Source: Cyanophora paradoxa CCMP329
Taxonomy: Eukaryota; Plantae; Glaucophyta
Direction: 5' to 3'
Length of the DNA stretch: 64,000 nt
Assembly (NCBI GenBank): GCA_004431415.1
Contig: QPMI01000165.1
Location: forward strand, 62,001 to 126,000
In this document: one piece after another, positions 4,332 to 24,957 of the stretch
Numbering within the stretch: position 1 is the first letter of the stretch
Layout: the number at the start of each line of letters is the position of its first letter
Translations under genes and position numbers: made by a program
Notes under the pieces: model-generated
Database searches by the model: none
The model's input: the letters and a program-made list of their open reading frames with translations, nothing else
What the model was told of the DNA's origin: nothing

Positions 4332-4374
4332 GGCTTTTACTATATGGATTTATAAAATTCCTGATAAGTAAAAG

Positions 4375-6852: not shown

Positions 6853-6881
6853 TTTAATATATAAATATAGATAAAAGAAGA
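6853..6881. promoter_or_regulatory. 29-bp AT-rich bidirectional promoter region between the two penton genes
   Basis: Sequence tttaatatataaatatagataaaagaaga between head-to-head ATGs. Confidence 0.55.
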
Positions 6882-7892: not shown

Positions 7893-7945
7893 ATTAAGGA
7901 TCATTGGTAGATTTTTTATGTTGCAGTATAATAAAAGAGAATATA

Positions 7946-9316
7946 ATGGATATCACTTCCACTCTTCAAAGACTTTCGCTGAAAGAAGCCCTAACAACCC
8001 CAGAGGAGGCGAAAGCCTTTTTCCTGGATAACTCCCTTATGCTTGGTCTCGAATCCAAGTCTAAGCCAGTTCTAGTTGTTGTGAATCCCAGCAATACTTT
8101 TGAGAATAATGTTGGAAATCGCATTTCCTTCAAGCTACCTCGCTACAATTTCTGTGGAAAACTCGAACTTGCTTTCGACCTTCCAGCCATCACTTTTGCT
8201 GGTGATACTGACCTAGTTCGCAATGGATACACTCGCCCAGTTGGTGCTTTAGTTCAGCGACTTGAAATTACCTATGGATCTTACACCTACCATATTCCAT
8301 CTGATTTCCTTGCTCATTTCCCCCTGGTCTATTATTCGGAGGATCAACTAGCTAAAAAGAAGCGATCAATGGGCATGGTTCATGGCATTCCTGCTCATGG
8401 AACCAACCGCCTTGGTGGCTCATTTTTCGTTGAAATTCCTGTGCCTTGGCTAAATCACTACCTTCCCCTTGGTGCTTTATCTGGTGAAATGGTTGTTACT
8501 GTTTGGTTTAAGGATGCTGGAAAGGGTTATGTTGAAACTTCCTATGGTGGTCGTGGTCTTACTGTTGCAGCAGCTGATGTAGATTATTCAAAAGATGACG
8601 GTCTTGGAACTGCCCCTGCTGAAACTGTTCTGGCAAATGTTGGTCAAAACATCACAGACTTTACTCTTGGTGCAACAACCCCTGTCATTTCTATTACTTC
8701 TCCTCGCCTTTACATGCATGCTATTAATGTTTCTGATGAGCTTTTCGCTACTGTAATTGAAAAAGTAAAGACTACTGGCATGGCTATTCCCTCCCTTGAT
8801 ATTGGATTTGTAGATGCTAGTGCTTTCCCTGCCAAGGGCAATGCCCAACCCAATCGAATTAACCTCTCTCAAATCTCAGGTCTTGTTTATGCTCTGCTTG
8901 TTTCAGTTCGTGATAATGCAACTGTTGATAAATCCACTGGCTCCCACAGTGTTCTTAAGACCTATGCCAACTCCAAAGATATTACTTTCACTGTTGAAAT
9001 TAATGGACAGCGACTTTATGCCACTGAGCCAATTTCCCTACTCAAAGGTGCTGAGCTAATTGCTGATGCCTTCAAATGCTCTAACATGGATAAGGTTGCT
9101 GATCGCTATGTCCTTTCAGGTTTAAGTTTCTGCATTGATGGAGAGAAGGCAATTCGAAATATTGCCCAGTCTGGTTATGTTGATTTAACAAATTCCTCCT
9201 CTTCATTCCTCACCCTGTACATGCCTTCAGATAAGGTAATCGATGTTAATGTTCGCGCTCTCATGCATTCCTATATAATTTTGGACAAAGATGGGCTTCG
9301 TCGTATAAATTTGTAG
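7946..9316 (+). CDS. Major capsid protein (double jelly roll), 456 aa
   Basis: Size and position between penton and ATPase; motifs GNRISFKLPR...LELAFDLP, LVQRLEITYG and FFVEIPVPW...LPLGAL...VTVWF resemble DJR MCP N-terminal strands. ATG 7946 is preferred over TTG 7904. Confidence 0.82.
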   Translation: MDITSTLQRLSLKEALTTPEEAKAFFLDNSLMLGLESKSKPVLVVVNPSNTFENNVGNRISFKLPRYNFCGKLELAFDLPAITFAGDTDLVRNGYTRPVGALVQRLEITYGSYTYHIPSDFLAHFPLVYYSEDQLAKKKRSMGMVHGIPAHGTNRLGGSFFVEIPVPWLNHYLPLGALSGEMVVTVWFKDAGKGYVETSYGGRGLTVAAADVDYSKDDGLGTAPAETVLANVGQNITDFTLGATTPVISITSPRLYMHAINVSDELFATVIEKVKTTGMAIPSLDIGFVDASAFPAKGNAQPNRINLSQISGLVYALLVSVRDNATVDKSTGSHSVLKTYANSKDITFTVEINGQRLYATEPISLLKGAELIADAFKCSNMDKVADRYVLSGLSFCIDGEKAIRNIAQSGYVDLTNSSSSFLTLYMPSDKVIDVNVRALMHSYIILDKDGLRRINL

Positions 9317-9381
9317 ATTGTTACGATATTCAGTCTCCCTGCATTATTTTTATATGTCTTTATTAAGAAAGATATACAACA

Positions 9382-10164
9382 ATGACTGATTTGGATGAAT
9401 TTGTGGCTGGTGAAATGATAGAACCACCATTTCGTGTATTGGCAATAGGAAAATCAGCAACTGGTAAATCAGAAGCTGTAAAGTATTGGTTAAAGCAATT
9501 ACATGATGCCAAAAAGATTGATGTTGTATTAGTTGTGAGTGGAACCAGCTTCAATCATTTCTGGGATAAAGTGGCAACACTGCAACTGGGAAAATGGGAT
9601 GCCCCTTACATTGCTAAATTGCTAGATGAGAGGCAAGAGAAAATAGAGAAAGGTGAACCTGTTAACCAATTGTGTGTGGTTTTAGATGATTTAATCGATA
9701 ATGAGATAGTCGATCTCACAAGGGATAAAATAATCGGATCTCTGTATTCCAGAGGTCGCCATTCGAAAATATCCATTATCTGCATCACACAAAAGCTAAG
9801 AAAAGTCTCTTCGACTATTCGAGTAAATTCGGATTATGCAATGTTTCTAAGTGCTGCAAATCGCAAAGAACTGGAAGCCATAGAGGAAGAATACAATATA
9901 ATGCGAAATAAAGAGGATTTCTACAAGATGTTTGAAGAGTATGTTCACTCCTATCAGTATATCATTTGGTCCTCTGCAAACTACTCAGTTAAATACTATG
10001 TAGATAAAGCTGAGCTTGTGAAAGATTTCCCATTTCCTCGCTTCCACAGGAAGCCAAAAAAGAAAGAAGATGAACTGAAACCACCAGAGAAAGAGGAAGC
10101 CCCCAAAGAAGTGAAAAGCCAAGTCCATAGCAATAAATTGATGCGATATAAACGCGGTTTATAA
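9382..10164 (+). CDS. A32-like (FtsK-HerA) genome packaging ATPase
   Basis: Walker A GKSATGKS, Walker B LCVVLDD, A32 motif RGRHSKISIICITQ, IRVNSDY. Confidence 0.93.
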   Translation: MTDLDEFVAGEMIEPPFRVLAIGKSATGKSEAVKYWLKQLHDAKKIDVVLVVSGTSFNHFWDKVATLQLGKWDAPYIAKLLDERQEKIEKGEPVNQLCVVLDDLIDNEIVDLTRDKIIGSLYSRGRHSKISIICITQKLRKVSSTIRVNSDYAMFLSAANRKELEAIEEEYNIMRNKEDFYKMFEEYVHSYQYIIWSSANYSVKYYVDKAELVKDFPFPRFHRKPKKKEDELKPPEKEEAPKEVKSQVHSNKLMRYKRGL

Positions 10165-10192
10165 AATTATCTCTCATTCTAATAAAGATACA

Positions 10193-10926
10193 ATGCCTCC
10201 CAAACGAAAGATAGGGATCCAGCTGGGGCTGTTGGCTATTCAGGTGGTGGAAACAATGGATCCATTAACACAGATCCACTGAAATTCAATGGTATGAATG
10301 AAGTGAAGCCCTCTCAACAACAAGAAGACCCCCTCAATGCTGCCTATGAGGAATCATTTGATGACAAAGCCCCACAGGCTTCAACCAGTGACCAACTCAA
10401 CATTTCACCTGAAGCCTCAAAGATGAAGGCTGTTGCTGAGGGAGCCAGGCGAATTATTGGTGCTGCTGATGATAAAGGTTTAGGCTTGCAAGATCTTTCA
10501 CTGGCTCGCAAAGGTGAAGGTCTAAGTAAGGAATCAGACAAGGTTATCCAGTCTATGGCTGGTGAAGTCACATATAAGACTGCTCCCACTCAAAATATTC
10601 ATCGAATTCCCAAGGCTCAATGGGATGAGGTGACTGCTAAACTCAAAGATCTGGAAGCCAAATCAAGTGCCTTGGAGCAGTATGTTACTGAGAAGAAAGA
10701 GAGGGCTAAGCTAAAGGAGATGCTTCGAAAGGAAGTATTCAAAATGGGAATTACTGGTGTCCCAGATAAACAGTTTATTGCTAAGAAAGAGAACCAAATT
10801 GATGAGCAGGCAGTAGATGAAATGAAAACAAAGACCCAAAAGGGAACCATTGAACCTGGTGCCACTAAAGCTGAAGTAGAAAAGGGAGTAGCTCCCACAG
10901 TATATAAAAGACGAGTTTGGCTTTAA
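10193..10926 (+). CDS. Hypothetical viral protein (basic N-terminus MPPKR, coiled coil); probable true start at 10193 with a 1-nt frameshift near 10208
   Basis: ORF 10294-10926 is open upstream (DRDPAGAVGYSGGG...). The ATG at 10193 follows the TAAAG motif seen before other viral ATGs. Confidence 0.6.
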
Positions 10927-10946
10927 ATATCTCACAATATTTAAGG

Positions 10947-11216
10947 ATGGAATTTATTTCGCGATTGCTGGAAATGTTTACATTTCACCTACATAGCCAT
11001 TGTGAGCAAGGCTGTTGCGATCTTGATGTGAGCATAGGAGTAAATGACAGTGATCAGGAGGATAATCTTTCTGAGGGCAGAGAGAGAAGGCATTCTGCAA
11101 TTTCTGTGGAGTCAGTGCCACCTACAGAGCATGTGAACCCACCACCTGTATTTGAATATGAGTATAGCCATGATGAGCCAATGTATAGACGCAGGGGGTC
11201 ATTCTCAGACCGGTAA
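10947..11216 (+). CDS. Small hypothetical protein (His/Cys cluster HLHSHCEQGCC)
   Basis: ATG at 10947 with the shared upstream motif; fills the gene-dense array. Confidence 0.5.
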   Translation: MEFISRLLEMFTFHLHSHCEQGCCDLDVSIGVNDSDQEDNLSEGRERRHSAISVESVPPTEHVNPPPVFEYEYSHDEPMYRRRGSFSDR

Positions 11217-11240
11217 AATATTTTTGCATTCGTATTATAA

Positions 11241-11465
11241 ATGGATTGTATTGATTTTGAGGACGAAAGTGTTGTGGAATTTGCATTAGATGATGATAAA
11301 AATGAACAGCATCGAATAAATACTCTAATCTTGAGTCGAATAAGATATAATGAAGACCCCACATATAGAGAGTATAGGAAGACAATTGCTTTGGCATCAT
11401 ATTATCGCAGAAGGGAAGAACGAGGTCTTTTAGGCAGAGGGAGGGGGAGACCAAGAAAATATTAG
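11241..11465 (+). CDS. Small protein with C-terminal AT-hook
   Basis: Ends in GRGRGRPRKY. Confidence 0.6.
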   Translation: MDCIDFEDESVVEFALDDDKNEQHRINTLILSRIRYNEDPTYREYRKTIALASYYRRREERGLLGRGRGRPRKY

Positions 11466-11476
11466 ATAGAGTAGCA

Positions 11477-11599
11477 ATGGACCCCCAGGTCTATAAGATA
11501 ATTGAGAAAAAGCGGTCTCAGTATGCTACTGAGGCAGCTATTAAAGTTTACAGACAGGAACTGGTGTTCGCAACAAAAAATGACTTAAAGAAAAAGTAG
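11477..11599 (+). CDS. 40-aa basic hypothetical protein (below ORF-track cutoff)
   Basis: MDPQVYKIIEKKRSQYATEAAIKVYRQELVFATKNDLKKK*, which fills the gap between neighbouring genes. Confidence 0.4.
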   Translation: MDPQVYKIIEKKRSQYATEAAIKVYRQELVFATKNDLKKK

Positions 11600-11648
11600 A
11601 TAGGTTGTATTGAGGAAAAATTATTTTCGTATCTACTATTAAAGAGAA

Positions 11649-11975
11649 ATGCCGAATATCCGCAAGATACTCACAGATGATGAAAAAGCAGAGAAGCTGA
11701 GACTGAAAAGGGAGCAAGATGCCCAAAGAAAACGCGAAGCCTATCATAAAAAGAAGGAGGAACGATTATCCCAAGGAGCCGCTACAGTTCACACACCAGA
11801 AGAACTCAAAAAGATTGCCCTCAGACACCAGAGGAAATACAGGGAAAATGAAGAATATCGCGAGCAGAAAAAGGCAAAAGCGCTGGAATATTACCACAAG
11901 AAGAAAGATGAACAGCCCAAGAAACCCAAAGAGCATAAACCGGTTGGAAGACCTCGGAAATATATCGAAGAATAA
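11649..11975 (+). CDS. Basic helical DNA-binding-like protein with C-terminal AT-hook
   Basis: K/R/E-rich repeats (AYHKKK, YYHKKK) and terminal PVGRPRKY. Confidence 0.7.
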   Translation: MPNIRKILTDDEKAEKLRLKREQDAQRKREAYHKKKEERLSQGAATVHTPEELKKIALRHQRKYRENEEYREQKKAKALEYYHKKKDEQPKKPKEHKPVGRPRKYIEE

Positions 11976-12193
11976 ATTCTCGATCGAACCAAATTTTGTA
12001 GAAATCGATTTGATCGGAGGCAAAAAAATGACAGCTTTCTTCCCTCTTTTTTAAAACTGTACCTATATATCGAGACAGTATCCCGACCCAAAACTACTTA
12101 AGGACTTGGCAAATAATAGGATATATATAAAAGACAATTCCTCCTTCCGAAATTATTTTCTTCGTTAAAGATAGAAGTCCCCCAAAATCGAAA

Positions 12194-14788
12194 ATGAACA
12201 AAATCGAGAAATTCGCCACCCCTGTTGAAAATGCTACATTCCTTAGTACTCTCATTGGTGATCGCAACAAGGTCACCCATGTATTTGATTCCGCCGAAGA
12301 TGCCCTTGAAGCCATTGATAATAGCAAGGTTAAGACCTGGGCTGAATGCATTCAGCCTGAACAAGTCACCAGAGTTTACCTGGACCTGGATAAATTCGCT
12401 GATTTGAAGGAGAACATTGCTGAAAACTATGCTGAGGCTGAAACTGTTGTAAGAGAGATGAGAGATAAGCTATGGAAGCGATCTGGGACCACTTCGATTA
12501 ACGATATTGCTGTTGCAGTTCGCCATAGAAGGGTTTATTTGATCAAGGAGGATGTCACCAAGTTCAAGATCTCAGCCCACTTTATCATTAAATCGCTTGC
12601 ATGCAAACATGAAGATATCCCCAAGCTTTTCAAAGCTATGGGATTGGTGAAAAATGAGGATTATGACAGTGGAGTTTACAGCTCCACACAGAACCTTATC
12701 TGCCTCAATTGCTGCAAAGGTGAGACTCTGGATGCTCAAAATAAATCAAAGAAAGATGTTGATAAAAACGTTTGCTTTAAGAAATTCGTTGACTGTGACA
12801 AAGTGTTAATGCGAAATGAGGACTTCTTTGTATCTTTCTTCTCAGCTTCTACTAAACTTGTGGATGAATCGAATATTTCTGCATTCGCAAATTATAGCCC
12901 TGAGCCAAAACCAGTTAAAAAGGAGCCAAAAAGTGATAAAGTGAAGACTGAGAAGGTAGAAGCTGAAAAAGACACTGAACCCGAAAATCCTGTTACTTTC
13001 GAACTGCTACAAAGTGTTATAATGGGTCTGAATGGTGAGAGAGCTAATGAGTATAAAACTTGGATTGATGTAGGACTGGTCATCATCAATGTTGGGGAAG
13101 ACAACAAGTTCACCCCTAAAATGCAAGCTGAACTCTTCCACCAATTCTCAGAACAGAGTGACAAGTATGATTATGATGAATGCCAGGAGAAGTTTACACA
13201 GCTTCGCAGAAGCAAGAAGAAGGCTGAGCCTGGCAAAGTGTTGACCTTCAAATCCTTGGTTTATTGGTTGAGCAAAGATAACAATGAGCTTTTCAAGGAA
13301 CTCTTCCCCAAAAAGTATGCATTCCTACCAGAGGACACAGATGAAATCGATTACAAGACTGCAAGTATCCCTCCTTTGGCTGAACATTACAATGTGCATA
13401 AGAGGTATTTCAATGCTCGAATGCATCATGTTGAAAATGTTGGTTGTGTGATGCTCTGGGATGAACAACTACTTTGCTGGATGCCCAAAGATATTGGGAA
13501 GCTCTCTACAAAGCATTTCCCCCATTTGATGCATAAGGTGATTGTGAATGAGGGGACAGATAATGAGAAAGAGAAATGGGAGCAATCATTTAGGAAATGG
13601 ATTGTGGATCCAACAGCCACAAGATCAACTTACATGGATTTCCTTCCCCCTCCTGCTACTCTCAGTGCAAAATGCAAGTCTGTATTTAATCTCTATCCAG
13701 GAATGAAGGTCGACCATCAGCAATTCGAAAATGCCCCAGAGGATGTAACTGCTGAGATGATTAAGCCTTTCCTAGATCACCTGTTCTTAATGTCTGGTGA
13801 GGATCAAAATACCTATGAATACCTGTTGAAATGGTTTGCCCACATGCTGCAAAAGCCTGGGGAACTCAATGGAGTATCCTTAATCTTCATTGGTGAGCAG
13901 GGAACTGGTAAAAATGTGTTGGTTGATACTTTCCAAAAGAAGATACTTGGAGATGCCCTAAGTTATGCAACTGGAAAGCCAAAAGAGGATCTGTTTGGTC
14001 GATTTGCCCACAATAGAGAGGATAAGATCTTGATTGTTGTGAATGAAGCCTCAGGCAAGGACACATTCGAAAATAATGATATGCTCAAAGATCTCATTAC
14101 TTCTGATAAGATTGTTATTGAACACAAAGGGATAGATTCATACACAAAAAGCAACTTTGCCAGGATTATATTTACCAGCAATAATAACATTCCAGTGAAA
14201 ATTGAAGCTGGAGATAGGCGATTTGTGGTTGTTGAAGTTAGTAAGAAATTCGCAAAGGATAGGTCATACTTCCTTCCACTTGTAAAATGGCTAAATGATC
14301 ACTGCAATATTCGAAACATTGCCCACTATTTGAGAACCAAAGTTGACTGTGAGGATGTGAACTGGATTGCTGATAGACCCCTTACAAATAAATACTATTT
14401 AGCCCAGCAGGTATGCGCCCCAATCATTCTTATGTTCACTAAGTGGCTTGTGGATCGAGGCTTAATTTCCGAGAATAAATGCAAGTCTGGTAGCCTTGTG
14501 GAAACCTGGAAGTGGTTCCAGGAGTTTATTACCAGCAACAAATATAAAAACGATTATAATAGTCGCAGATATTATACAGAAATGCGAAGTGTGACATATA
14601 TCCAAGTGAAAACTACAAATGGCAAACAATACTATCATTTCTTGTTCCCACAAGTATTTGAGGAATTCAGAAAGATGAAACTTGTAGATGATGAGACTAT
14701 TGAGGAAGAAGCTAATCCAAGGATGAAACAGGACCTACCTGCTGCTGATCCTGATGCATCAGATTATGACTCTGATGTTGAAGTTTAG
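12194..14788 (+). CDS. AEP primase-polymerase + PriCT-2 + superfamily 3 (D5-like) helicase
   Basis: AEP motifs RVYLDLD, ISAHF and YDSGVY; PriCT-2 YKTWIDVG...FHQFSEQSDKYD; Walker A GEQGTGKN, Walker B IVVNEA, sensor IFTSNN, GDRRF. Confidence 0.9.
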   Translation: MNKIEKFATPVENATFLSTLIGDRNKVTHVFDSAEDALEAIDNSKVKTWAECIQPEQVTRVYLDLDKFADLKENIAENYAEAETVVREMRDKLWKRSGTTSINDIAVAVRHRRVYLIKEDVTKFKISAHFIIKSLACKHEDIPKLFKAMGLVKNEDYDSGVYSSTQNLICLNCCKGETLDAQNKSKKDVDKNVCFKKFVDCDKVLMRNEDFFVSFFSASTKLVDESNISAFANYSPEPKPVKKEPKSDKVKTEKVEAEKDTEPENPVTFELLQSVIMGLNGERANEYKTWIDVGLVIINVGEDNKFTPKMQAELFHQFSEQSDKYDYDECQEKFTQLRRSKKKAEPGKVLTFKSLVYWLSKDNNELFKELFPKKYAFLPEDTDEIDYKTASIPPLAEHYNVHKRYFNARMHHVENVGCVMLWDEQLLCWMPKDIGKLSTKHFPHLMHKVIVNEGTDNEKEKWEQSFRKWIVDPTATRSTYMDFLPPPATLSAKCKSVFNLYPGMKVDHQQFENAPEDVTAEMIKPFLDHLFLMSGEDQNTYEYLLKWFAHMLQKPGELNGVSLIFIGEQGTGKNVLVDTFQKKILGDALSYATGKPKEDLFGRFAHNREDKILIVVNEASGKDTFENNDMLKDLITSDKIVIEHKGIDSYTKSNFARIIFTSNNNIPVKIEAGDRRFVVVEVSKKFAKDRSYFLPLVKWLNDHCNIRNIAHYLRTKVDCEDVNWIADRPLTNKYYLAQQVCAPIILMFTKWLVDRGLISENKCKSGSLVETWKWFQEFITSNKYKNDYNSRRYYTEMRSVTYIQVKTTNGKQYYHFLFPQVFEEFRKMKLVDDETIEEEANPRMKQDLPAADPDASDYDSDVEV

Positions 14789-14798
14789 GTTTACTCAA

Positions 14799-14980
14799 AA
14801 GTGGACTCATGGTTGACTCAAATTTATCATAAAAGACCCAAACAGTCTTTTATTTATGGTTTATTTATCGATTAGGTTGACTAAGTGGGGGGAGTTGACT
14901 CATTTTTTCACAGATTCTAAAAAAGGACTCTGCCCTAAAAAGAAATAAAAAGTGCCTCAACTCCACCCACTAAGTCAACC
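14799..14980. repeat. Internal iteron/inverted-repeat cassette (candidate origin), diverged direct copy of 20873-21059
   Basis: aagtggactcatggttgactca (14799-14820) is identical to 20873-20894. Inverted arms 14875-14898 and 14957-14980 match at 22/24. A 9-bp AT hairpin lies at 14829-14853. Confidence 0.8.
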
Positions 14981-15031
14981 AAAAAATGATTTAAGAGATA
15001 GAAAAATATATTTATATGTAAGTAGTAAGAA

Positions 15032-15382
15032 ATGGCTGGAACAGATCATGATTCTGGATCGATCTATATGATTGAGAGTGAAGAATTGAATAAAGTTTAT
15101 ATAGGGAGAACCTCACAGCCACTACAAAAAAGATGGAGACAACACAAATCAGGTCAAATGCCATCTACAGCAGACCTATGCAAGGCTTCTGATGTGAGGT
15201 TTTCAGTCCTTTATTCAACTAAGAAGGGTGGGCATGAAGACCTTATGAACAGAGAAGCATATTACATGTATCTCTTTGAATCTTGGATAGTCAATCTACA
15301 AAAACCGAAATCTCGATTTAGGATTAATAGGTTTTTGCGATTTCATTCAGAGGAAGCCAATGGATCCATTAAAACATTTTAA
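15032..15382 (+). CDS. GIY-YIG endonuclease
   Basis: GSIYMI...KVYIGRT...LQKRWRQH, with later E (NREAYY) and N (IVN). Confidence 0.88.
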   Translation: MAGTDHDSGSIYMIESEELNKVYIGRTSQPLQKRWRQHKSGQMPSTADLCKASDVRFSVLYSTKKGGHEDLMNREAYYMYLFESWIVNLQKPKSRFRINRFLRFHSEEANGSIKTF

Positions 15383-15442
15383 ATTGCGTTTAGAACATCC
15401 TAAAATAAAATATCCCCTTAGAATAGGAACAAGTTAGGAATA

Positions 15443-18400
15443 ATGCCCCGAATTACCAACAAACTCATAAGGGAGAAGAAATGGGAACTCATGGGATTGC
15501 TGGGAACACTTTATGCAGCCCATGAAATTACAGAGGCTGAATATGACCGGGAAATAGATTTAATTGCAAAGGGCAGACCCACTTTAAGCAGATTAACCAG
15601 AAAAGCAAATAACCTATATGATAAAATTGAAACCTTGGATGAATTGGATAGGCTTAGGCAAATAGAACCAGATGCAGAAGATGGAACAGCCATGAATGAA
15701 TTATATCGCTGGCTCACTTACAGAGCCAGAAGGGAAGTTGTTGTAGATGTGATTGAATTCCTGGATAGAATTGCTACATCCCTTCCAAATCGATTAAAGC
15801 AGGGTTTAGATCAATTCAGGGCAATCAAGGTTCGCTTGTCTTTTATCTGCAAGTTCGTTAAAGTGAGCAATCCACAGGTTTGGATATCGAAATACATTTA
15901 CAGTGATTACTTTGTATTAACCAGGTCGAGAAATATTCGAACTGAGCTGAATAAAGCAGCCCAAATGTGTCAGGAGCAGATGAATGTGGTTGATAGCTAT
16001 CGCTTAGAAAGAATTGAAATACTCAGAGTGGCTATTATGAGTTATGCTCCAACTGGTGGTTGCTTTCTACAAACCCCAGAGTGGATTGCTAGGAAGAGAG
16101 CCACAGTGAATATTCGAAATATTGATGATTCCTGCTTCGAAAATGCGATTTTAGCCTCGATTTACAGAAAATCTATTAACTCCCATAAGAGGAATGAGCT
16201 TTCACAATATCGCAAATGGAAATACTCAGCAATCGCTTATAATCCGCTGGCTCTCAATTTCGACAATATCCCATTCCCTGTTGCCTGTGATGCTGAAATA
16301 ATTGATAAATTCGAGGCTCAAAATGCAGGCATTAGCATTAATATATTCGGAATCGATGGAGAGGTTGTTTATCCCCTGCATCAATCCAGTAACCCAGGCA
16401 GAAAGCATAAGGTTAATCTCATGCTGATATTTGATGATGAAGGGAATGGTCATTATATTACAATCATGTCCCTTTCAAGATTATTGAAAGTAAACCATGA
16501 AACATACAATGATCAGAAGTTACACTACTGTGACACATGCTTATCTCGATTCAGGTCTGAGGCTAAACTCACTGCTCATGTGGACTCAAATAGATGCATT
16601 GACTGGAGACTCTCAAAGGGAATCACCCCTAAACCTGAGACCACCATAGAGTTTGGACTGAAAAACCTCAGGAAAACTGTGTGGCTTCCTGTTGTGGTCT
16701 ACTGCAAGATTGAACATAGAAGCATCCCCATTGATGCATCGAAATCCAAGAGGGAAGTTTCAGCAGTCAACCTTAGAGTAGTCACTGGGGAAGATGTTCA
16801 AGATTTTCGATTTGAGGGGCAGGATCCAATGGGAGGTCTCTTTGAATGCTTGGAGTCCAAAGCAAGAGAGCTGATCGATTTTCTGTTTACCAATATTCCC
16901 ATGAATGAACTCACAGATGAGCAAAAGGCTGTTTACAGGGCTACTAAACACTGTTACCTTTGCAGTGAGAGGTTCACCAAGGAGAACTTCAAATGCAGGG
17001 ATCATGATCACCACACAGGTCAGTACATTGCTCCTGCATGCAGAAACTGCAATCTACATAGGAGAATCTCAAAGCAAACAAAAGTAGCAGTGGTTGTTGA
17101 CCAAATGGATGACTGTGGGACATTCATTTTCAGAAAAATAGCAGGCATGGGTGATAAAAAGCGAATCGAAATCCTTTCGAAAAACTTTGATCAATACCTT
17201 TCATTGCAATGGGGTCTTTACAAGTTCATTGATGCAAGTAATTTTATGGACTTTGGGGCTGCTGATGTAGATGAGTTAATGAGCAAATTCCAGGCTTTCA
17301 GAAGGCTTTCACACTCAGTATATGGATTGGACCCAGTTCATTATGTATCTGCACCTGGGTTATCTTGGGATGCTATGCTTAGGACCACCAAGGCAAAAAT
17401 AGAGCTTATAAGTGATGTAGAGCAATACGAATTTGTTGAGAGGGGAATCAGGGGTGGCTTTGCAACAATGCCTTGTAGGTATGCTGAGGCTGATGGTGAA
17501 AACTCCCACATTATGCTGTTTGATGCTAACAACTTGTATGGCTACTGTTTGAGTCAGCCAATCCCAGTTGGTGATTTTAGATGGGAGACCGAATTCAACC
17601 CACAAGATAACAGATCCAGTTTCCTGGAAGTTGATCTGGATTACCCAATTAGGCTGTTTCTAGATCACAGTGATTTCCCCCTAATTATTAACAAGAAAAT
17701 AGTAGAATATGCCGAATTATCACAATATCAAAAAAGCCTATTGGATCTCTCAGGAGAAGAGCTTGATAAGACCCCTAAGCTAACTGCAACCTTTGGTTCT
17801 GTGACCAACTATGTGATTTCTGAGCCTCTTCTACAGTATATTCTGACCAAAGGTGTGAAACTTAAAAAGGTTCACAGGGTCCTATCATTTACTGTGGCTC
17901 CTGTAATGAAATCTTATATTGAGCTGAACACTGAGATGAGAAGGAAAGCAGTGAATAAATTCGAGGCTGATTTCTATAAGCTCATGAATAACTCAATCTA
18001 TGGGAAATGCATTGAATCTTGCAGGGGTAGATCTGTGGTTAAGATTGCAAACAGTGAGAAACTATTTATGAAATATGCAGCCTCTCCTTTAGTGAAATCA
18101 ACAAGTCCCATAAGTGAAAGGGCAGTTGCATTTGAGTTTTACACAAAACATGTGAAGCTAGATAAGCCAGTTGCTATTGGGGCTTATGTTTTGGATGCTG
18201 CCAAACTGCATAATTACCAGTTCTTCTATGATACTGTGAGGTCCCAATGGTCAAAAGCAAAGTTGCTATTCCATGATACTGATTCCTTCTGTCTATATAT
18301 TGAATCTCACACCCTCCAAAAGGACCTGGGGAATATCTCTTATGCATTGGACCTTGGAGGTGATTCAAGAATGACCCCAGGTAAATACAAAAATGAAATG

Positions 18401-18688
18401 CCAGGTTCTGCTATATTAGAATATGTGGGTCTGAGAGCCAAAGTTTACAGTTTCAGAACTGCTGAGATTGAGAGAAGTAAGCTCTCTGGGACTTCCACTG
18501 GGGAACTCCAATTTAATGATTTTAAGCAGTGTTTATTTGCAGGTATCAGCAAGACTGTGACTGCAAAGCAGAAAAGAAGGGCAGATCACACAATAGTAGA
18601 CACTGTGAGTAGAAGGGTTGCCCTGAACTGCTTTGATGCAAAGAGATACATCTTACCAGATGGTATTAATTCTGTTCCTTTTAATTAA
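15443..18688 (+). CDS. Protein-primed family B DNA polymerase (Polinton-type) with vOTU-like, zinc-finger and EndoVII-like domains; 3'-5' exonuclease degenerate
   Basis: Pol motifs FDANNLYG, KLMNNSIYGK, FHDTDS and GLRAKVYS; GLDPVHYVSAPGLSWDAML and ERGIRGG; EndoVII-like CYLC...RDHDHHTG...CRNCN; DDSCF...GHY vOTU-like dyad; CDTC...H zinc finger. Confidence 0.93.
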   Translation: MPRITNKLIREKKWELMGLLGTLYAAHEITEAEYDREIDLIAKGRPTLSRLTRKANNLYDKIETLDELDRLRQIEPDAEDGTAMNELYRWLTYRARREVVVDVIEFLDRIATSLPNRLKQGLDQFRAIKVRLSFICKFVKVSNPQVWISKYIYSDYFVLTRSRNIRTELNKAAQMCQEQMNVVDSYRLERIEILRVAIMSYAPTGGCFLQTPEWIARKRATVNIRNIDDSCFENAILASIYRKSINSHKRNELSQYRKWKYSAIAYNPLALNFDNIPFPVACDAEIIDKFEAQNAGISINIFGIDGEVVYPLHQSSNPGRKHKVNLMLIFDDEGNGHYITIMSLSRLLKVNHETYNDQKLHYCDTCLSRFRSEAKLTAHVDSNRCIDWRLSKGITPKPETTIEFGLKNLRKTVWLPVVVYCKIEHRSIPIDASKSKREVSAVNLRVVTGEDVQDFRFEGQDPMGGLFECLESKARELIDFLFTNIPMNELTDEQKAVYRATKHCYLCSERFTKENFKCRDHDHHTGQYIAPACRNCNLHRRISKQTKVAVVVDQMDDCGTFIFRKIAGMGDKKRIEILSKNFDQYLSLQWGLYKFIDASNFMDFGAADVDELMSKFQAFRRLSHSVYGLDPVHYVSAPGLSWDAMLRTTKAKIELISDVEQYEFVERGIRGGFATMPCRYAEADGENSHIMLFDANNLYGYCLSQPIPVGDFRWETEFNPQDNRSSFLEVDLDYPIRLFLDHSDFPLIINKKIVEYAELSQYQKSLLDLSGEELDKTPKLTATFGSVTNYVISEPLLQYILTKGVKLKKVHRVLSFTVAPVMKSYIELNTEMRRKAVNKFEADFYKLMNNSIYGKCIESCRGRSVVKIANSEKLFMKYAASPLVKSTSPISERAVAFEFYTKHVKLDKPVAIGAYVLDAAKLHNYQFFYDTVRSQWSKAKLLFHDTDSFCLYIESHTLQKDLGNISYALDLGGDSRMTPGKYKNEMPGSAILEYVGLRAKVYSFRTAEIERSKLSGTSTGELQFNDFKQCLFAGISKTVTAKQKRRADHTIVDTVSRRVALNCFDAKRYILPDGINSVPFN

Positions 18689-18691
18689 GAG

Positions 18692-20077
18692 ATGCCAGCA
18701 ACTGGAAGAATAGTTAGGAGAACCACTGAGCAACTGCAAGGTAACCTACTGCCTATCACAATTCCAAAGGAGGAAAAGGGGGAATCTCGAATTGTTAAAA
18801 AGTCTGAAATGAAAGAGCTTGTCCCAGTAGAGATCCCAGTTGCCATTGCAGTGAAAGAAACTAGCAAGATTGCCAAGAGATTCTATGATGTGAGAACTGG
18901 TTACAAAGGGCTTCAAGCTATGAGGGCTGAGTTACCTGATGAATCCTATAAGCAGTTGCAAGAGTTCTATAAGAAACAGGAAGTTGTTCAGATCAATGCA
19001 CCAGCTATATCTAGAAAGAGAGATCCCATGGTCCCAATCAGGCAACCCCTTGATACCTATGTGATTGATTTGCTCTTTTTCCCAGCTTATAAGAAACAAA
19101 ACAATGGCTATGATACTTTTATGACTGCAATGGAATCAACACTGAGAACTGGTTATATTATACCTATAAGGGATAAATCAGCTCTCACTACATTAGCTGC
19201 ATTTAAACAGCTTGAAATGAGAGTGGCAAGACCCATAGTAAAGGTTCAATCAGATGCTGGAAGTGAATTCCAAAATCGAATATTCCAGGAGTATTTATCT
19301 AGTAAATACATAGAACACCAAGTGAGTGGAACTGCTGACCACAGAAGCCAAGGTCGAATTGAAGCCTTTAACAAGCAGATTAAGAGACTGATCACAAACT
19401 ACTGCATAGCTAATAACACAGCTAGATTCTTTGATGTGTTAGGTGATATTGAGTATAATTACAATAATACAGTTCACTCAGCTACTAAGATGAAGCCAGG
19501 CGAAACTACAGAGAAGCATTATAGGTATATAGTGGGATTAGAAGATGAAAGATTCAAGAAATCAATAGCTTATCTTGACACCATGCAGCCTGGCATGTTT
19601 GTTAGAGTGAAAGTTGAGAAGAACCCCTTTGCTAAACAGGGTAACAATTGGTCTAGGATGGTTTACACTGTTGATAGTAGGGAAGGCTTTAAGTTTAAGC
19701 TAAGGAGTCCCACTGGTGAGATCATAGATAACAGGTTTGCTTTCCATGAGCTGTTGCATGTGAATGCAGTTGAATATCTAGAAACCCCTACAGTGGATGC
19801 CTTAGAGCAAGCCAAAGAGGAAGCCAGGGTTGATGCTGCTATAAGGAGAGAGGGCATAGAAGCTGCTAATGAAGTCCCAGATAAGCCTTTGATAGAGGCT
19901 AGAAAGGAGAAGACTGGCAAGGTTAATAGGGAACTCAAAAAGCTCACCATAGCAGGGACACAGAAACTTTCAGAAGTGAATAGCCAGAGATGGTATAGTG
20001 ACTTTCAGACTACTAAGGAGTCATATACAGCCCCTAAACCTCAAAGAACACTAAGAGAGAGGACCAAAACTAGCTAG
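18692..20077 (+). CDS. Retroviral-like (rve/DDE) integrase, Polinton type
   Basis: Catalytic D (YVIDL), D (VQSDAGSEF) and E (QGRIEAFN); YNNTVHSATKMKP; C-terminal G.FVRV...F.K...NWS..VYTV. Confidence 0.93.
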   Translation: MPATGRIVRRTTEQLQGNLLPITIPKEEKGESRIVKKSEMKELVPVEIPVAIAVKETSKIAKRFYDVRTGYKGLQAMRAELPDESYKQLQEFYKKQEVVQINAPAISRKRDPMVPIRQPLDTYVIDLLFFPAYKKQNNGYDTFMTAMESTLRTGYIIPIRDKSALTTLAAFKQLEMRVARPIVKVQSDAGSEFQNRIFQEYLSSKYIEHQVSGTADHRSQGRIEAFNKQIKRLITNYCIANNTARFFDVLGDIEYNYNNTVHSATKMKPGETTEKHYRYIVGLEDERFKKSIAYLDTMQPGMFVRVKVEKNPFAKQGNNWSRMVYTVDSREGFKFKLRSPTGEIIDNRFAFHELLHVNAVEYLETPTVDALEQAKEEARVDAAIRREGIEAANEVPDKPLIEARKEKTGKVNRELKKLTIAGTQKLSEVNSQRWYSDFQTTKESYTAPKPQRTLRERTKTS

Positions 20078-21360
20078 TTTGCTAGCCGAAAACTCGTTTT
20101 TTCAAAATATATGTATGACTGATATACATATATGCATATGCTATACACATAGTCTTGTAGATCTTTTCAAGCGCTTCACAGCGATATGCAGAACGTTGCG
20201 ATTTGATAATCTGGTGATGAGATACAAGCGTTTGAAGATGCCGATTATCGATTTTTCGAGATTTCGGAATGATGCATCATAATGATGTAATAATGATGTA
20301 TCATAAACATATAACATATATATATCGCCGTGATCGTCATGATCTCCCGAGTTCGATGGTGTGTCATATATATCATATACATTTGCATCGTCATTATGAC
20401 ATCATTTCGTAAAATTACACGTCCGTCATCGTCTTTTTCCGCAGCGAACAGATAAGTGAACAGTTAAGGAGACAACTATTGTAATAGTGGACTGCAACAA
20501 CAATTGAAAACAAGATCTGTGGGAAAGCTATTGAAAGACAATGAAGCAAATTGCGAACAATTAAGTGAACAGTTAAGTGGACACCTGTTGGGAGTAGGCA
20601 GTGTCTACTCGTTTATCGTGAAACGGTGTCCACTTAACTGTTCATTTAACTGTTGACGAAAACCCATGCATTATGACATCATATCATTAAACCCCATACA
20701 AAACACTAAAATGCATGTATCTCTTCACCAACTCATCATCTTACAAAGATAAAAACAGATTCGGAATCCTCTTAACGAGACCAGCGTGACTATGTAAGTA
20801 TCATAGGCTCAATAATTCATATGTTAATAAGCATCTCCCCTAGATTCCCCCTATTATATTATATTTATATTTAAGTGGACTCATGGTTGACTCATATTAA
20901 TCGTAAAAGTAGTAAAAGTATATGGATTTTGTTACGAATTCAATGCAAGGGTTGACTAAGTGGGTTGAGTTGACTCAAATTTCACAGGAAATATTTGGGA
21001 CCTAAAGTTTTCTAAAAAGGATTTCAAAAAATGTGTCAACTCCCCCCACTTAGTCAACCCTGACCATAAACAGTAAGGATTTGAGCTAACATGTATCACA
21101 AAGTGAACATATTGAGTCCACTTAGAAGATCCACTTTTGAAATCCAAGTTGATTTTGCTTGAAATTTCAAAGTTGATCTAAAAGTGAGTCCACCCTGATT
21201 GATTATGGTAACAAAGTTGACTAAGTTGACTAAGTTGAGTCATATTAAGAAATTCAAGGAGACTAAGAGTTCAAAATGTTAATGAAAAGTGAGTCAACTT
21301 AGACCACTTATGGTAACAAATTTAAATATTTAATTGATTTAATCGGAAAAGAACATGATT

Positions 21361-21585
21361 TAATCGAATTTATTGATATAATTCCGATTAGATTCATTTA
21401 GGATTCAATTAAGATCAATCGAAGTTATTGATATAATTCCGATTAACTACAATTAAGATACAATATCGATTAATCGAGTTTATCGATATAACATCGATTA
21501 AATTAATTGAAATGCATATAAAAATATGAAAATTCATGTGAAAATTCAAATAAATTAATCGATTTTATTGATATAACATCGAATC
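21361..21585. repeat. Four imperfect AT-rich repeats, core aatcga.(t/g)ttat(t/c)gatataa(ttc/cat)cga
   Basis: Copies start near 21362, 21417, 21472 and 21557. Confidence 0.75.
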
Positions 21586-21659
21586 ACACATATGAATATT
21601 CATATTTTAATCCTGAGGCGGAACGCCGAGGGATTAAAATATGAATATTCATATGTGTG
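21585..21659. repeat. Perfect 29-bp inverted repeat with GGCG-GAA-CGCC inner hairpin at the virus-host boundary
   Basis: cacacatatgaatattcatattttaatcc (21585-21613) is the exact reverse complement of 21631-21659. Confidence 0.9.
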
Positions 21660-21664
21660 CGCAG

Positions 21665-22783
21665 GCAATGCGCGCGAAGCTCGAGTTCGAATTTGATGGA
21701 CGCAAAGATGATTTCGATTCTTGGTACAGCGGAGCGATCGCGACATGCGCATTCATCGCGTTTGCAGGGAAAGAGTACAGGCACGCCTTTTATATTATCG
21801 GTACTGCTCAGCGGCCCCTGACGCAATTTAGCAAACTCGAATTCGGAATCGAGCTCGAAGATGAGCTCCTTCTGAAGGACAGGCCTAGGGCATGTGCGTT
21901 GGCGGAGGAGCTCCAACTTCTCTTCGGCCTCAATCAACTTCGAGCCAAACTGGAGGATGCCGAATGGGTGAGAACGTTTAAATGTAATGGACCTGGGTTT
22001 GTGTAAGAATTCGATTCTATCGGCACTTCTTTTTCACGGCAGGTGATGTGGACGACGCGAACGTATTCGGCCGTCACCAAAGAGCACTTGGAGTCGGCTC
22101 TCCGCGACGTCGACGCGCTTCTCGCCCGATGTGCCAGGGCCTCACTTCCCGTCCCAAGCTCCTTCTTCTGCGACCTCGTCGAAGTCTGTGCCGCTTCTGG
22201 CGACTGGAAACGCGGCCAGGACTATTGGGCTCGGATGCCGCAGCGGGGTGTCCAACGTGACGGCAATGCTTTGAGTGCGTCTCGCAATTGAAACTCCCCA
22301 GAGAAGTTCGCAAGCTTCGCGTTTCTGACCATATTTTCCAGGAACGTATTTCGAACTCTGTTTCGCGTGTCTCGACGAGGCCCTGGCCAAGTTCAAGCCG
22401 AAGTTGGTCAAAGCTGGTCTGAAACTCGATGAGGACGGCTTGGACCAGCTGCTGAAGTGGGACATGTACATGAACTACGAACTTCCTTCCTTCAAAAACC
22501 CTGACGTCGACGAGTTCTCGGCCTTGTCAGAAGACGAGAGGCGTGAACACGAAGAATTCGTTTCGCGATTGCAATTGGAAGAGGAGGAGGTGCGTGCCCC
22601 GTGCGTGCGCTGGACATGATATTAATATTTGGCTACCGGGCTAACACACGATTTCATGTTCAACTGCAGCTGCAGGCTCACGCTCATGATCAAGCTAATG
22701 CTCATGCTCATGATCATGATCAAACCCATGGGCATGGCCATGACATCGATCAAGCAGATGATCACCATCAAGCGCTTCTCGAG
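21665..22783 (+). CDS. Internal exons of a host gene with a PPR-like motif; 5' part displaced or interrupted by the virus
   Basis: Exons ~21665-21967, ~22043-22274, ~22342-22589 and a His-rich exon ~22670-22783, bounded by GT...CAG. FCDLVEVCAASGDWKRGQDYWARMPQRGVQRD resembles a PPR repeat. Confidence 0.45.
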
Positions 22784-23265
22784 GTTCGCAGTTTTGATAT
22801 AATATCGATGCAACGTAAATTATAACATGCTGAAATACGTACTACGGTACTCGAAATACGTTCTAATCTCCTCATGATATATCGATTAGGGGGATTCCGA
22901 GGACCATGGCCAGTAACGGGCTCGCCGGGCATCGCCCTCAGCCCCCGATGCTTCGATCGCCACGGCCACGATTCGACGAACCAGCAGGCGGGCATCTCGG
23001 ATCTCGGACCGTGAATTTCATGATCATCATGAGCATGCCGGCACCGCGCTTATTGCGGAAGGACCGGCCGCGGCGCCGGCCCATCTTATGTTCTAGACGT
23101 GTACTTACGACTCGACGCCCAGCTCGAAAAGACAACTAGCTGTAGAATCGAACCCTTGTCACCTGTATCTATCTCCTCTTGTAGTCGCCGCGTGGAGCGG
23201 GGGACTGCTTGTAATTATGTGAGCTCACACTCGGCGCCAAAGCTGCCTGCAGCTGCACGCTGCAG

Positions 23266-24957
23266 CTACTGAGGGCCGCCCTCGCGATCGGGCCCGGCGC
23301 CCTCGGCGGCGGCGGCGCGGCGGCGGGCCTTGGCGGCGTAGAAGTTGAAGGCGACGAAGTCGTACAGCGCGTGCACCAGCATCGGCACCTGCGCCGCAAA
23401 GAGCCGGCCTCGAACGCTGATCCGCCCGCAACTCTTGCCAGGGGCGGTGGGGCGGTGTGGGGCGCACCGCGATGTTGTGGCTGGATAGTGTGAGGAAGAA
23501 GAAGAGGCGTGAGGGGGCGAGGAGCAGAGGCGCCGGCCTAGGGCTCGCGGCCGAATCGAATCGAATAGAAGCCGGGGCGCACCTGGCGAGGAACATCCAT
23601 CCGAAGTAGAGCCCCGCGATGAACGTCGCCCCGATGTACCTGTACCCGGGGAGGGCGGGGCGGGGCGGGGCGGGGGGGAGGGGGCGGGGCGAGGCGGGGC
23701 GGCGTGAGGAAGAGATCGAAAGGAATGAAGGAGGGGCGCACTGGGGCGAGATCGCGTGCGCGAGAGAGAACAGGACGCTCGCCCCCAGCACCGCCTGCGG
23801 GGGTACAGGACGCTACTTGAGTTCGGGATGGGGGGGCGGGGGGGGGGTAGTAGCGCACGGCGGGGTCGCCGAAGCGGTCCGCGAGGCCCGTCTGCACCGC
23901 CGCCCGGAAGAAGAGCTGGGGGGAACAAGTGAGGAGGGGGTACGTGAAAAGCCATGAAGGGGGTACACGCCTCCTCGCAGACGCCGGCGGCGGTGGCGAG
24001 GAAGGCGAAGTCGAGGACGCTGAGGCTGCGGGGTACGCGATCAGAGGGGCGGGCCGGGGGGGGGGAAGGAGGGAGCAGGGGCGTACCCCCGGAAGGCGAG
24101 AGAGACGTCGTCCCTGCGGGGGTGGGGCGGAGGGGTCGGAACTCGGGGGGCGGGGGGCGGCGAACGTTCGCCGCGGGCGGGGGGAAGACAGGGCGCACAT
24201 CGTGCGGCTGAGCGCCTTCAACGGTTCCCAGTCGATCTTCTCCGAGCTGCGGGCGGCCGCCTGAGCGGAGCGGGGGAGGCGGGGCCGCGGGGGGCGGAAG
24301 CGGGCGCGCGCCCGAAGAGGATGGCGAGGAGGGGCGCGGTGCCGGCGAGGCTGAGCCCCAGCGCTTCCGGCGTGATCGCGAACGTCCCGCCCAAGTCCAC
24401 GTCAAGCGCCTGCGTTCGTGCACCGGCGGCCTGATCATGAGCGGCGCGGGCGCGCGGGGACGCGGCCGCGGACGCGCGCTCGCTCGCCCGCTCGCCTTTC
24501 CGGTGAGGAGCGCGAAGAGTGTGAGGCCGGTGTAGCCCAGCGCCGAAACCTTCACGAGCTGCGCCCGCACCTCCTCCGCCGGAATGGCTGCGAGCTGCCG
24601 GAACGAGGCGGTGCCGTCCTCGGGTCTGGCCGGCAGCGGCTGCGGGCCGTCCGCCGGCGGCACCGACGGCGCTTCCGGGTCTTTCTCGCTCGTCGCCGCG
24701 ACGTACGGCACCCGCCGCGCCCGCCTCTCCTCCGACGGCGCCGGCACGAAGGCCAACGAGCGCCGCGCGTGCAGGCGCCAGGCGGCGCAAGGCTCGCTGC
24801 CGAAGAACGCCCGACTGCGTAGGAGCCTACCGCAATGCGCCGCGCCGCTCGCCGGCCGCGGGCTGTGCGGTGCGAGCCGGAAAGTAGAGTGCCAGCCGGC
24901 CGCGCAGCTGACGAGCCGGTACGGCGTGCAGGGGGCGCAGAAGGCGTGCGAGGCCAT
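23266..24957 (-). CDS. CPBP/Abi (type II CAAX) intramembrane glutamic protease, probably plastid-targeted; multi-exon
   Basis: Exon peptides GVCEE|LFFR, LFSLAH, YIGATFIAGLYFGW and PMLVHALYD; Ala/Ser/Arg-rich N-terminus MASHAFCAP...RAFFG resembles a transit peptide. Confidence 0.82.
   Translation of the reverse strand: MASHAFCAPCTPYRLVSCAAGWHSTFRLAPHSPRPASGAAHCGRLLRSRAFFGSEPCAAWRLHARRSLAFVPAPSEERRARRVPYVAATSEKDPEAPSVPPADGPQPLPARPEDGTASFRQLAAIPAEEVRAQLVKVSALGYTGLTLFALLTGKASGRASARPRPRPRAPAPLMIRPPVHERRRLTWTWAGRSRSRRKRWGSASPAPRPSSPSSSGARPLPPPAAPPPPLRSGGRPQLGEDRLGTVEGAQPHDVRPVFPPPAANVRRPPPPEFRPLRPTPAGTTSLSPSGGTPLLPPSPPPARPSDRVPRSLSVLDFAFLATAAGVCEEACTPFMAFHVPPPHLFPPALLPGGGADGPRGPLRRPRRALLPPPRPPIPNSSSVLYPRRRCWGRASCSLSRTRSRPSAPLLHSFRSLPHAAPPRPAPSPPPRPAPPSPGTGTSGRRSSRGSTSDGCSSPGAPRLLFDSIRPRALGRRLCSSPPHASSSSSHYPATTSRCAPHRPTAPGKSCGRISVRGRLFAAQVPMLVHALYDFVAFNFYAAKARRRAAAAEGAGPDREGGPQ

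What the first reader, a model, noticed from the sequence alone, without database searches (positions are those of the whole stretch)
16690..17300. pPolB has lost proofreading: ExoI/ExoII substituted and about 100 aa deleted, while polymerase, EndoVII-like and vOTU-like motifs are kept
Seen versus the remembered Polinton pPolB consensus: ExoI YADFE reads YCKIE (16700-16714), and ExoII FHNLxGYD reads VDQMDDCG. The long segment between FIDSxxFM and YxxxDV, including KGxYPY, is collapsed to FIDASNFMDFGAADV. The frame stays open for 1,081 aa with intact DANNLYG, KLMNNSIYGK and DTDS. Inference: multiple in-frame changes confined to one domain look like long-term, tolerated loss rather than recent decay. 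This would be a naturally low-fidelity or repurposed polymerase, for example for end-priming or gap-filling, complemented by the AEP and the retained EndoVII-like nuclease.
Basis: partly seen in the sequence, partly recalled or inferred. Interest (0 to 1): 0.82.

Follow-up and report, generated by a model that had tools for sequence, protein, structure and literature searches.

The report
Proofreading-less Polinton polymerase beside a helicase
A many-copy virus integrated in a likely algal genome has a DNA polymerase whose proofreading part has lost key catalytic residues and about 94 amino acids while the copying part stays intact and conserved, so it is predicted to copy DNA without error correction, likely helped by the virus's own helicase; such losses are known in related viruses, and this one is caught half-way.

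Summary
The 1,081-aa pPolB (15443-18688) has lost the ExoI and ExoII aspartates, the ExoIII tyrosine, KGxxPY and about 94 aa (19 residues against a median of 113 in 412 relatives). Polymerase, HNH, vOTU and terminal-protein folds are kept (AlphaFold pLDDT 89.6; phi29 Z 22.9). One correction: the ExoI Glu and ExoIII Asp survive here, but not in the 47%-identical sibling.

It is not decay: 26 of 39 variants among sibling copies are synonymous, and two runs bridge the junction without a gap. Nine other proteins lack the same segment; trees and an indel favour at least two independent deletions.

Exonuclease loss paired with helicase gain is already described for mavirus and Tlr1-type pPolBs, and this element carries an intact AEP-SF3 helicase. 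Best reading: an active, proofreading-less replicase with a dead exonuclease scaffold, likely unwound for by the helicase. The HNH domain is ancestral, so it is no compensation. The terminal-protein priming loop is also atypical, and the element has a hairpin end and repeat blocks, so priming may have passed to the primase. The helicase link rests on this one element. New variant of a known kind.

The parts
15443..18688 (+). pPolB, 1,081 aa: helical N-terminus, TP/D1, vOTU, zinc finger, dead exonuclease scaffold with HNH insert, polymerase
   Evidence: (PF03175 E 2.5e-13; PF02945)
15665..16054 (+). Terminal-protein (D1, LF/PAD-like) domain, residues 75-204
   Evidence: model matches Pol eta PAD, Z 9.5, rmsd 2.5, 106 aligned
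15986..16000 (+). Atypical TP linking loop VVDSY (Ser185 kept, no Gly/Pro, preceding helix shorter); most relatives read xGSGW
   Evidence: vs 125
16055..16492 (+). vOTU protease domain, Cys231 and His337 intact
   Evidence: OTU folds Z 6.3-7.2; C 294 of 302 and H 298 of 302 in relatives
16700..16714 (+). ExoI remnant YCKIE (Asp->Lys422; Glu424 kept)
16892..17077 (+). HNH / endonuclease VII-like insert inside the exonuclease fold, intact, ancestral in the family
17096..17119 (+). ExoII remnant VDQMDDCG (Asn->Gln, Tyr->Cys, Asp->Gly559)
17225..17269 (+). Deletion junction FIDASNFMDFGAADV: helical lobe with KGxxPY and the first turns of the ExoIII helix are missing (about 94 aa); Tyr->Phe604, Asp608 kept
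   Evidence: vs 125
17279..18685 (+). Polymerase domain with DANNLYG (17522), KLMNNSIYGK (17978), DTDS (18275), KVY (18440); TPR1 and TPR2 spans of normal length
12194..14788 (+). AEP - PriCT-2 - SF3 helicase, 864 aa, catalytic-type motifs present (DLD 12371, SAH 12566, Walker A 13892)
14799..14981 (.). Inverted-repeat block with GTTGACT words right after the helicase gene; candidate origin
15032..15382 (+). GIY-YIG endonuclease; skipped in one contig of run X2 (joint 14976-15400)
18692..20077 (+). rve integrase directly after pPolB
20873..21310 (.). Second copy of the repeat block and further half-sites in the terminal region
21585..21659 (.). 75-nt terminal palindrome at the element's right end; single-copy host DNA starts about 21665
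   Evidence: z -11
7946..9316 (+). [quoted passage not shown]
   Evidence: Atlas features 0.97-0.98 to Capsid_NCLDV clusters, recognition below the tool's threshold
9382..10164 (+). A32-like packaging ATPase
   Evidence: PF04665 E 5.6e-11

Best explanation
This is a Polinton-type family B DNA polymerase whose exonuclease domain has lost two of four catalytic acids and a 94-residue helical lobe, leaving a folded but predicted-inactive scaffold, and it likely still replicates the virus without proofreading while the element's own primase-helicase likely does the unwinding. Steps: (shown) the lesions, the intact polymerase motifs, purifying selection among copies, the neighbouring AEP-SF3 gene; (predicted) the beta-sheet core still folds, carries the HNH insert and keeps the phi29-like architecture; (inferred from phi29 biochemistry) no 3'-5' exonuclease activity and weaker strand displacement; (inferred from the mavirus precedent) the SF3 helicase loads on the repeat blocks and opens the duplex ahead of the polymerase. 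Whether synthesis starts on the terminal protein (Ser185), on AEP primers or on the terminal hairpin is open.
For: Lesions and rarity: (405 of 412 long-segment relatives keep D,E,D,D). No rebuilt site: no acidic residue of the remnant is shared by the deleted proteins except the HNH Asp520 and the family-wide Asp597; P0002 lacks all four carboxylates. Fold: pLDDT 89.6; strands and helices of the core match the full-length control one for one, while the control's helical lobe 485-568 and the start of its helix 574-604 are absent; 481 residues align to phi29 (Z 22.9, rmsd 3.0) against 525 (Z 25.4) for the control. Selection: 26 of 39 variants synonymous against 21% expected, p 1e-9, pN/pS about 0.13 (the 39 are the in-gene rows among the 40 best supported of 195). 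Identity to P0002 is 51% in the polymerase, 55% vOTU, 53% HNH, but 30% and 37% in the exonuclease remnants. All 10 deleted proteins keep PolA/B/C and KxY motifs. phi29 D12A/D66A is exonuclease-deficient, misincorporates and has defective strand displacement (PMC6351526, passages). Exo loss goes with helicase gain in mavirus and Tlr1-type proteins (PMC11161782, section 10). Control: 0 of 16 loci of 9 kb or more with a related pPolB showed an SF3/primase gene.
Against: The helicase link is seen in one element only: no genomic context could be fetched for the other nine deleted proteins. The 16 control loci are partial, and I checked the exonuclease motifs by alignment, not locus by locus for all. 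The repeat block brackets GIY-pPolB-rve, as in published two-replicase mosaics, so the two replicases may only be stacked. AEP-SF3 can be a replicase by itself. The TP loop is atypical (10 of 394 have a hydroxyl residue without Gly/Pro). Only 7 of the 39 scored variants lie in the polymerase domain (6 synonymous). No enzyme activity was measured.
Confidence: 0.55

Rival explanations
1. The AEP-SF3 protein is the main replicase and the eroded pPolB is kept as an accessory enzyme, for filling gaps or finishing the hairpin ends during excision and integration with the rve integrase.
For: Atypical TP loop; shorter C-terminus (137 vs 151-201 residues after DTDS); terminal palindrome, which in Halocafeteria elements goes mostly with non-pPolB replicases (10.64898/2026.07.28.741278, passages); pPolB and DDE integrases are correlated (10.64898/2026.10.13.758929, passages).
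Against: TPR1 and TPR2 spans are normal; TP and vOTU folds and catalytic residues are kept; the other eight deleted proteins keep a normal GSGW/SSGW loop.
Confidence: 0.2
2. GIY-pPolB-rve is a separate transpoviron-like module stacked onto an AEP-SF3 virus; the exonuclease was lost for its own reasons and the helicase is a bystander.
For: Related repeat blocks flank the module at 14799-14981 and 20873-21070; such bracketed second replicases are described (10.64898/2026.10.13.758929, section 13); unchecked notes on this genome report swapped replicases.
Against: No joint that removes the module is listed in 4 runs (12 joints listed); GC and GC3 of the two replicase genes are alike (0.40; 0.42 vs 0.39); the left block can be read as the helicase's own origin rather than a module end.
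Confidence: 0.17
3. The exonuclease site still works weakly through the surviving Glu424 and Asp608 plus nearby acids (Asp553, 556, 557).
For: Two of four carboxylates are kept in this protein; the core fold is predicted intact.
Against: A Lys sits at the ExoI Asp; none of these acids is kept at the same place in P0002, which has Asp only at the next position; Tyr and the KGxxPY Lys are gone; loss of the equivalent two aspartates is the standard exonuclease-null phi29 enzyme.
Confidence: 0.05
4. Recent decay of an inactive copy, or an assembly error.
For: This copy has two frame breaks in other genes (about 3880 and 4895).
Against: Same deletion in P0002 at 47% identity; junction bridged by two runs; synonymous excess.
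Confidence: 0.02

Closest known systems
Mavirus pPolB with separate SF3 helicase (PMC11161782, sections 5 and 10; PMC13215967, passages)
   Same: Protein-primed family B polymerase with TP and vOTU, exonuclease lost, SF3 helicase on a separate gene, rve integrase, integrated in a protist.
   Different: Mavirus keeps only a remnant (TP-vOTU-PALM; 617 aa in BFVD, weak match E 3e-12). Here the beta-sheet core, the HNH insert and a zinc finger remain (1,081 aa), the protein belongs by sequence to the animal/protist Polinton class (33-37% identity), and the helicase is fused to an AEP.
Tlr1-like pPolB-SF1 helicase fusions of PLVs and transpovirons (PMC11161782)
   Same: Exonuclease-less pPolB working with a helicase.
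   Different: There the exonuclease is gone and an SF1 helicase is fused; here it is a partial deletion and a separate SF3 enzyme.
HNH/EndoVII-bearing Polinton and adintovirus pPolBs (10.1101/2023.08.22.554363, section 8; PMC8502044, passages; BFVD top hit A0A8D9PE63)
   Same: Domain order TP-vOTU-zinc finger-Exo with HNH insert-Pol; pPolB next to rve; best structural match E 1e-53.
   Different: That survey reports conserved Exo I-III in all taxon groups; 405 of 412 relatives here keep all four acids, this protein does not.
Two-replicase polisuviruses (10.64898/2026.10.13.758929, section 13; 10.64898/2026.07.28.741278, passages)
   Same: pPolB plus AEP/D5 primase-helicase in one element, repeats bracketing one module, palindromic ends.
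   Different: They are read as transient replacement states; the word 'exonuclease' does not occur in either main text, so erosion of the pPolB was not examined there.

Membership tests
Protein-primed family B polymerase (pPolB) | PolA DxxSLY, PolB Kx3NSxYGK, PolC DTDS, KxY motifs | tested here: met
Protein-primed family B polymerase (pPolB) | phi29-like fold with TPR1/TPR2 insertions | tested here: met
   Z 22.9, rmsd 3.0, 481 aligned to 2pyj; motif spans normal
Protein-primed family B polymerase (pPolB) | Proofreading exonuclease: ExoI D and E, ExoII D, ExoIII Y and D | tested here: not met
   D->K, D->G, Y->F, lobe deleted; E424 and D608 kept
Protein-primed family B polymerase (pPolB) | Terminal protein with Ser/Tyr linking residue in a Gly/Pro loop between alpha2 and beta4 | tested here: inconclusive
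   Fold present; Ser185 present but no Gly/Pro and shifted
Protein-primed family B polymerase (pPolB) | Protein priming in vitro | not testable with these tools
   needs biochemistry
Polinton-type pPolB (TP-vOTU-EXO-PALM) | vOTU domain with catalytic Cys and His | tested here: met
pPolB2 of Jeong et al. / Beta adintovirus PolB | Placement in the named clade with named reference sequences | not tested
   No named references were put in the trees; only the HNH insert resembles pPolB2
Mavirus-type pPolB | [quoted passage not shown] | tested here: not met
   Core sheet and HNH kept; 151 residues align to the Pol epsilon exonuclease fragment 6s1c; works like it, is not a member
Polinton / Polinton-like virus | Capsid protein, A32 ATPase, pPolB, rve integrase | tested here: met
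   (capsid by Atlas features only)
Polinton / Polinton-like virus | Terminal inverted repeats and target-site duplication | not testable with these tools
   Left end lies outside the window and no genome is held
Polinton / Polinton-like virus | Maturation protease (classical Polintons) | tested here: inconclusive
   None among 16 proteins scanned; the element's left part is missing

The most novel reading that the evidence does not exclude
A protein-primed polymerase caught turning into a primase-dependent replicase: it has shed proofreading and also protein priming (degenerate terminal-protein loop), and elongates primers made by the AEP, or the terminal hairpin, behind an SF3 helicase loaded on repeat-block origins. 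That would be a two-enzyme viral replisome built from a pPolB, with the same exonuclease lobe deleted convergently in at least two Polinton lineages.
Probability: 0.22. Interest if true: 0.78.

Novelty: new variant of a known kind. Interest (0 to 1): 0.52.

Why it matters
Exonuclease loss in eukaryotic pPolBs was known only as an end state (mavirus, Tlr1 fusions), with an untested proposal that helicase gain compensates. Here is an intermediate in the mainstream Polinton class, in a many-copy family under purifying selection, with ten natural examples and probably more than one origin. That makes the proposal testable in two ways: by genome context of the independent lineages, and by assay of a natural exonuclease-less enzyme with and without its helicase against a full-length relative. 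It also predicts a raised mutation rate for these viruses.

Tried and rejected
One origin for all deleted proteins: first trees grouped five of them (FastTree 95; SH-aLRT 89; the careful search never finished), but with closer full-length relatives added the group split; AU test p 0.36 on the polymerase part, p 0.011 on the N-terminal part. So one origin is disfavoured, not excluded; 40 selected rows, long branches (P0253). P0139 (52-residue segment, ExoI also missing, ExoIII intact) was left out as a different, possibly gene-calling, lesion. Context for the other deleted proteins: four scans found nothing; the helicase had no relative in viral contigs. A profile of five deleted proteins found no new member among 14 hits. 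Sequence search of the PDB did not reach the phi29 exonuclease, so motif mapping rests on family alignments, the two models and published phi29 residues. Summed contig depth is lower over AEP-SF3 (about 1,700-4,500) than over pPolB, rve and capsid (about 6,500-24,000), but the tool states depth cannot rank genes; not used. No RNA holder listed. Bacterial promoter scan and helicase-vs-pPolB BLAST were uninformative. No complex prediction was run. Earlier-findings look-ups by sequence, words and 'exonuclease' returned nothing.

Full report
Setting. Positions 1 to about 21,659 are a 40% GC virus-like element; the rest is intron-rich host DNA of 70% GC. The element encodes a likely major capsid protein (Atlas features only), an A32 ATPase, an AEP-PriCT-2-SF3 protein, a GIY-YIG nuclease, the pPolB and an rve integrase. 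It ends in a 75-nt palindrome (z -11), after which contig depth falls from thousands to 20-220. Its left end is outside the window and no genome is held. Unchecked AI notes name the host as the glaucophyte alga Cyanophora paradoxa; I did not test this.

The observation. Among 458 aligned sequences, 424 cover ExoI to PolC; 412 have 104 or more residues between FxDSxxF and FxxFR (median 113) and 405 of these keep all four catalytic acids; the window's protein has 19. Gap-free anchoring gives ExoI Asp->Lys422 with Glu424 kept, ExoII Asp->Gly559, ExoIII Tyr->Phe604 with Asp608 kept, and KGxxPY deleted. In phi29 the site is Asp12, Glu14, Asp66, Asp169, Tyr165 and an auxiliary Lys143 (PMC4974454, passages), and the D12A/D66A enzyme is the standard exonuclease-deficient form, misincorporates and displaces strands poorly (PMC6351526, passages). 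That KGxxPY holds the Lys143 equivalent is my inference, not a tested alignment.

Structure. The model is confident (pLDDT 89.6, pTM 0.84). Against a full-length relative folded the same way (P0124), the strands and helices of the exonuclease core and the HNH insert correspond one for one; the control's helical lobe (485-568) and the first turns of its 31-residue ExoIII helix are missing, the remaining helix being 19 residues. The model aligns to phi29 over 481 residues (Z 22.9) against 525 (Z 25.4) for the control, and to the Pol epsilon exonuclease fragment over 151 (Z 7.2) against 190 (Z 12.5). Residues 75-204 match the Y-family PAD fold (Z 9.5), as published for the terminal-protein domain (PMC11161782, sections 6 and 7), and 211-346 match OTU proteases (Z 6.3-7.2). 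I had no coordinates, so active-site geometry was not measured.

Not decay. Twenty of 24 listed runs hold part of the stretch. On 3.5 kb, 1,427, 608 and 681 short contigs of 80-100% identity were laid from three runs, so there are many divergent copies. Of the 40 best-supported variant rows (of 195), 39 lie in the gene; 26 are synonymous against 21% expected, none makes a stop, pN/pS about 0.13. The listed indels come in compensating pairs. Two runs bridge the junction without a gap. P0002, 47% identical over the full length, has the same deletion and has lost all four acids; identity is lowest in the exonuclease remnants (30%, 37%) and 51-55% in polymerase, vOTU and HNH.

A wider, probably convergent pattern. 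Eight further proteins (P0177, P0210, P0253, P0285-P0289) lack the same segment, leaving 17-47 residues, with different substitutions in ExoI-III and intact polymerase motifs. Sparse trees grouped them with the window's protein. With their nearest full-length relatives added, both a polymerase-only tree and an N-terminal tree separate P0001+P0002 from the rest; the AU test rejects one origin on the N-terminal part (p 0.011) but not on the polymerase part (p 0.36). A two-residue insertion is shared by the other eight and by full-length P0290 and P0291, not by P0001 or P0002. At least two origins is the better reading.

Mechanism. [quoted passage not shown] The window fits: the SF3 helicase gene lies 650 bp upstream with AEP and Walker motifs present. 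As a control, none of 85 loci gave a tblastn hit to it, and no SF3 or primase family was found among 46 proteins scanned from the 57 large non-polymerase ORFs of the 16 loci of 9 kb or more (11 integrase-like or nested ORFs were left out); these loci are partial. The phi29 data give a reason: exonuclease-domain lesions weaken strand displacement. The HNH insert cannot be a compensation, since 292 of 302 full-length relatives have its His. I put 0.55 on an active proofreading-less replicase served by the helicase.

What does not fit neatly. The TP linking loop reads VVDSY with a shorter preceding helix; 378 of 394 relatives have a hydroxyl residue with Gly/Pro nearby, and P0001 and P0002 are among 10 that have the hydroxyl without it. 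A repeat block with GTTGACT words follows the helicase gene and recurs at the element's end, and the end is a hairpin, which in Halocafeteria elements goes mainly with non-pPolB replicases (10.64898/2026.07.28.741278, passages). So priming may have passed to the AEP or the hairpin (novel case), the pPolB may be an accessory enzyme (0.2), or the bracketed GIY-pPolB-rve stretch may be an independent module as in published two-replicase genomes (10.64898/2026.10.13.758929, passages and section 13; 0.17). I could not see the context of any other deleted protein, which is the main gap.

Literature. Seven searches turned up no description of an exonuclease-deleted, HNH-bearing Polinton pPolB. A survey of 20,702 + 1,331 integrase-linked pPolBs reports conserved exonuclease motifs in all taxon groups (10.1101/2023.08.22.554363, passages and section 8). 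I also read passages of PMC12721341, PMC13215967, PMC8502044 and 10.64898/2026.06.19.733378. Figures and bioRxiv supplements were not seen, and the library lacks most subscription papers.

Verdict. A real, selected loss of proofreading, of a kind already known, seen here at an intermediate stage in a different polymerase class and likely more than once. New variant of a known kind; interest 0.52.

Noticed in passing
window:4375-5930: Patatin-like phospholipase followed by an F5/8 type C domain reads as one gene broken by a frame change near 4895 in this copy; lesion or assembly indel.
   Followed up: partly
window:1072-4331: Fibre-like gene on the minus strand (repeats, H-type lectin end) appears broken by a frame change near 3880.
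   Followed up: partly
window:10897-11499: 600-bp stretch covered by single contigs at host-level depth (31-66) inside a many-copy element: a copy-specific insert or replaced segment with two short ORFs.
   Followed up: no
window:14976-15400: One contig of run X2 skips the GIY-YIG gene, so it is optional in the family, as for a homing endonuclease.
   Followed up: no
window:14799-14981 and 20873-21310: Inverted-repeat blocks with GTTGACT words after the helicase gene and at the end; a second hairpin-like family (GTGAACAG) at 20447-20654.
   Followed up: partly
window:21585-21659: 75-nt terminal palindrome with a small internal mismatch bubble.
   Followed up: partly
window:5920-7892: Two divergent genes (310 and 336 aa) upstream of the capsid gene that resemble each other in their ends; possibly two minor capsid proteins (weak DUF5901 hit).
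   Followed up: no
window:31414-41848: Host tandem duplication with a period of about 5.5 kb at 97-100% identity, and 151-nt repeats at its end.
   Followed up: no
P0210, P0285-P0289: A tight group (57-74% identity) of exonuclease-deleted pPolBs in ENA/JGI/Logan assemblies on contigs up to 19 kb, with a normal GSGW terminal-protein loop.
   Followed up: partly
P0084, P0111, P0263, P0338: Full-length relatives with only the ExoII Asp replaced (His, Ala or Asn): possible earlier steps of erosion or dead copies.
   Followed up: no
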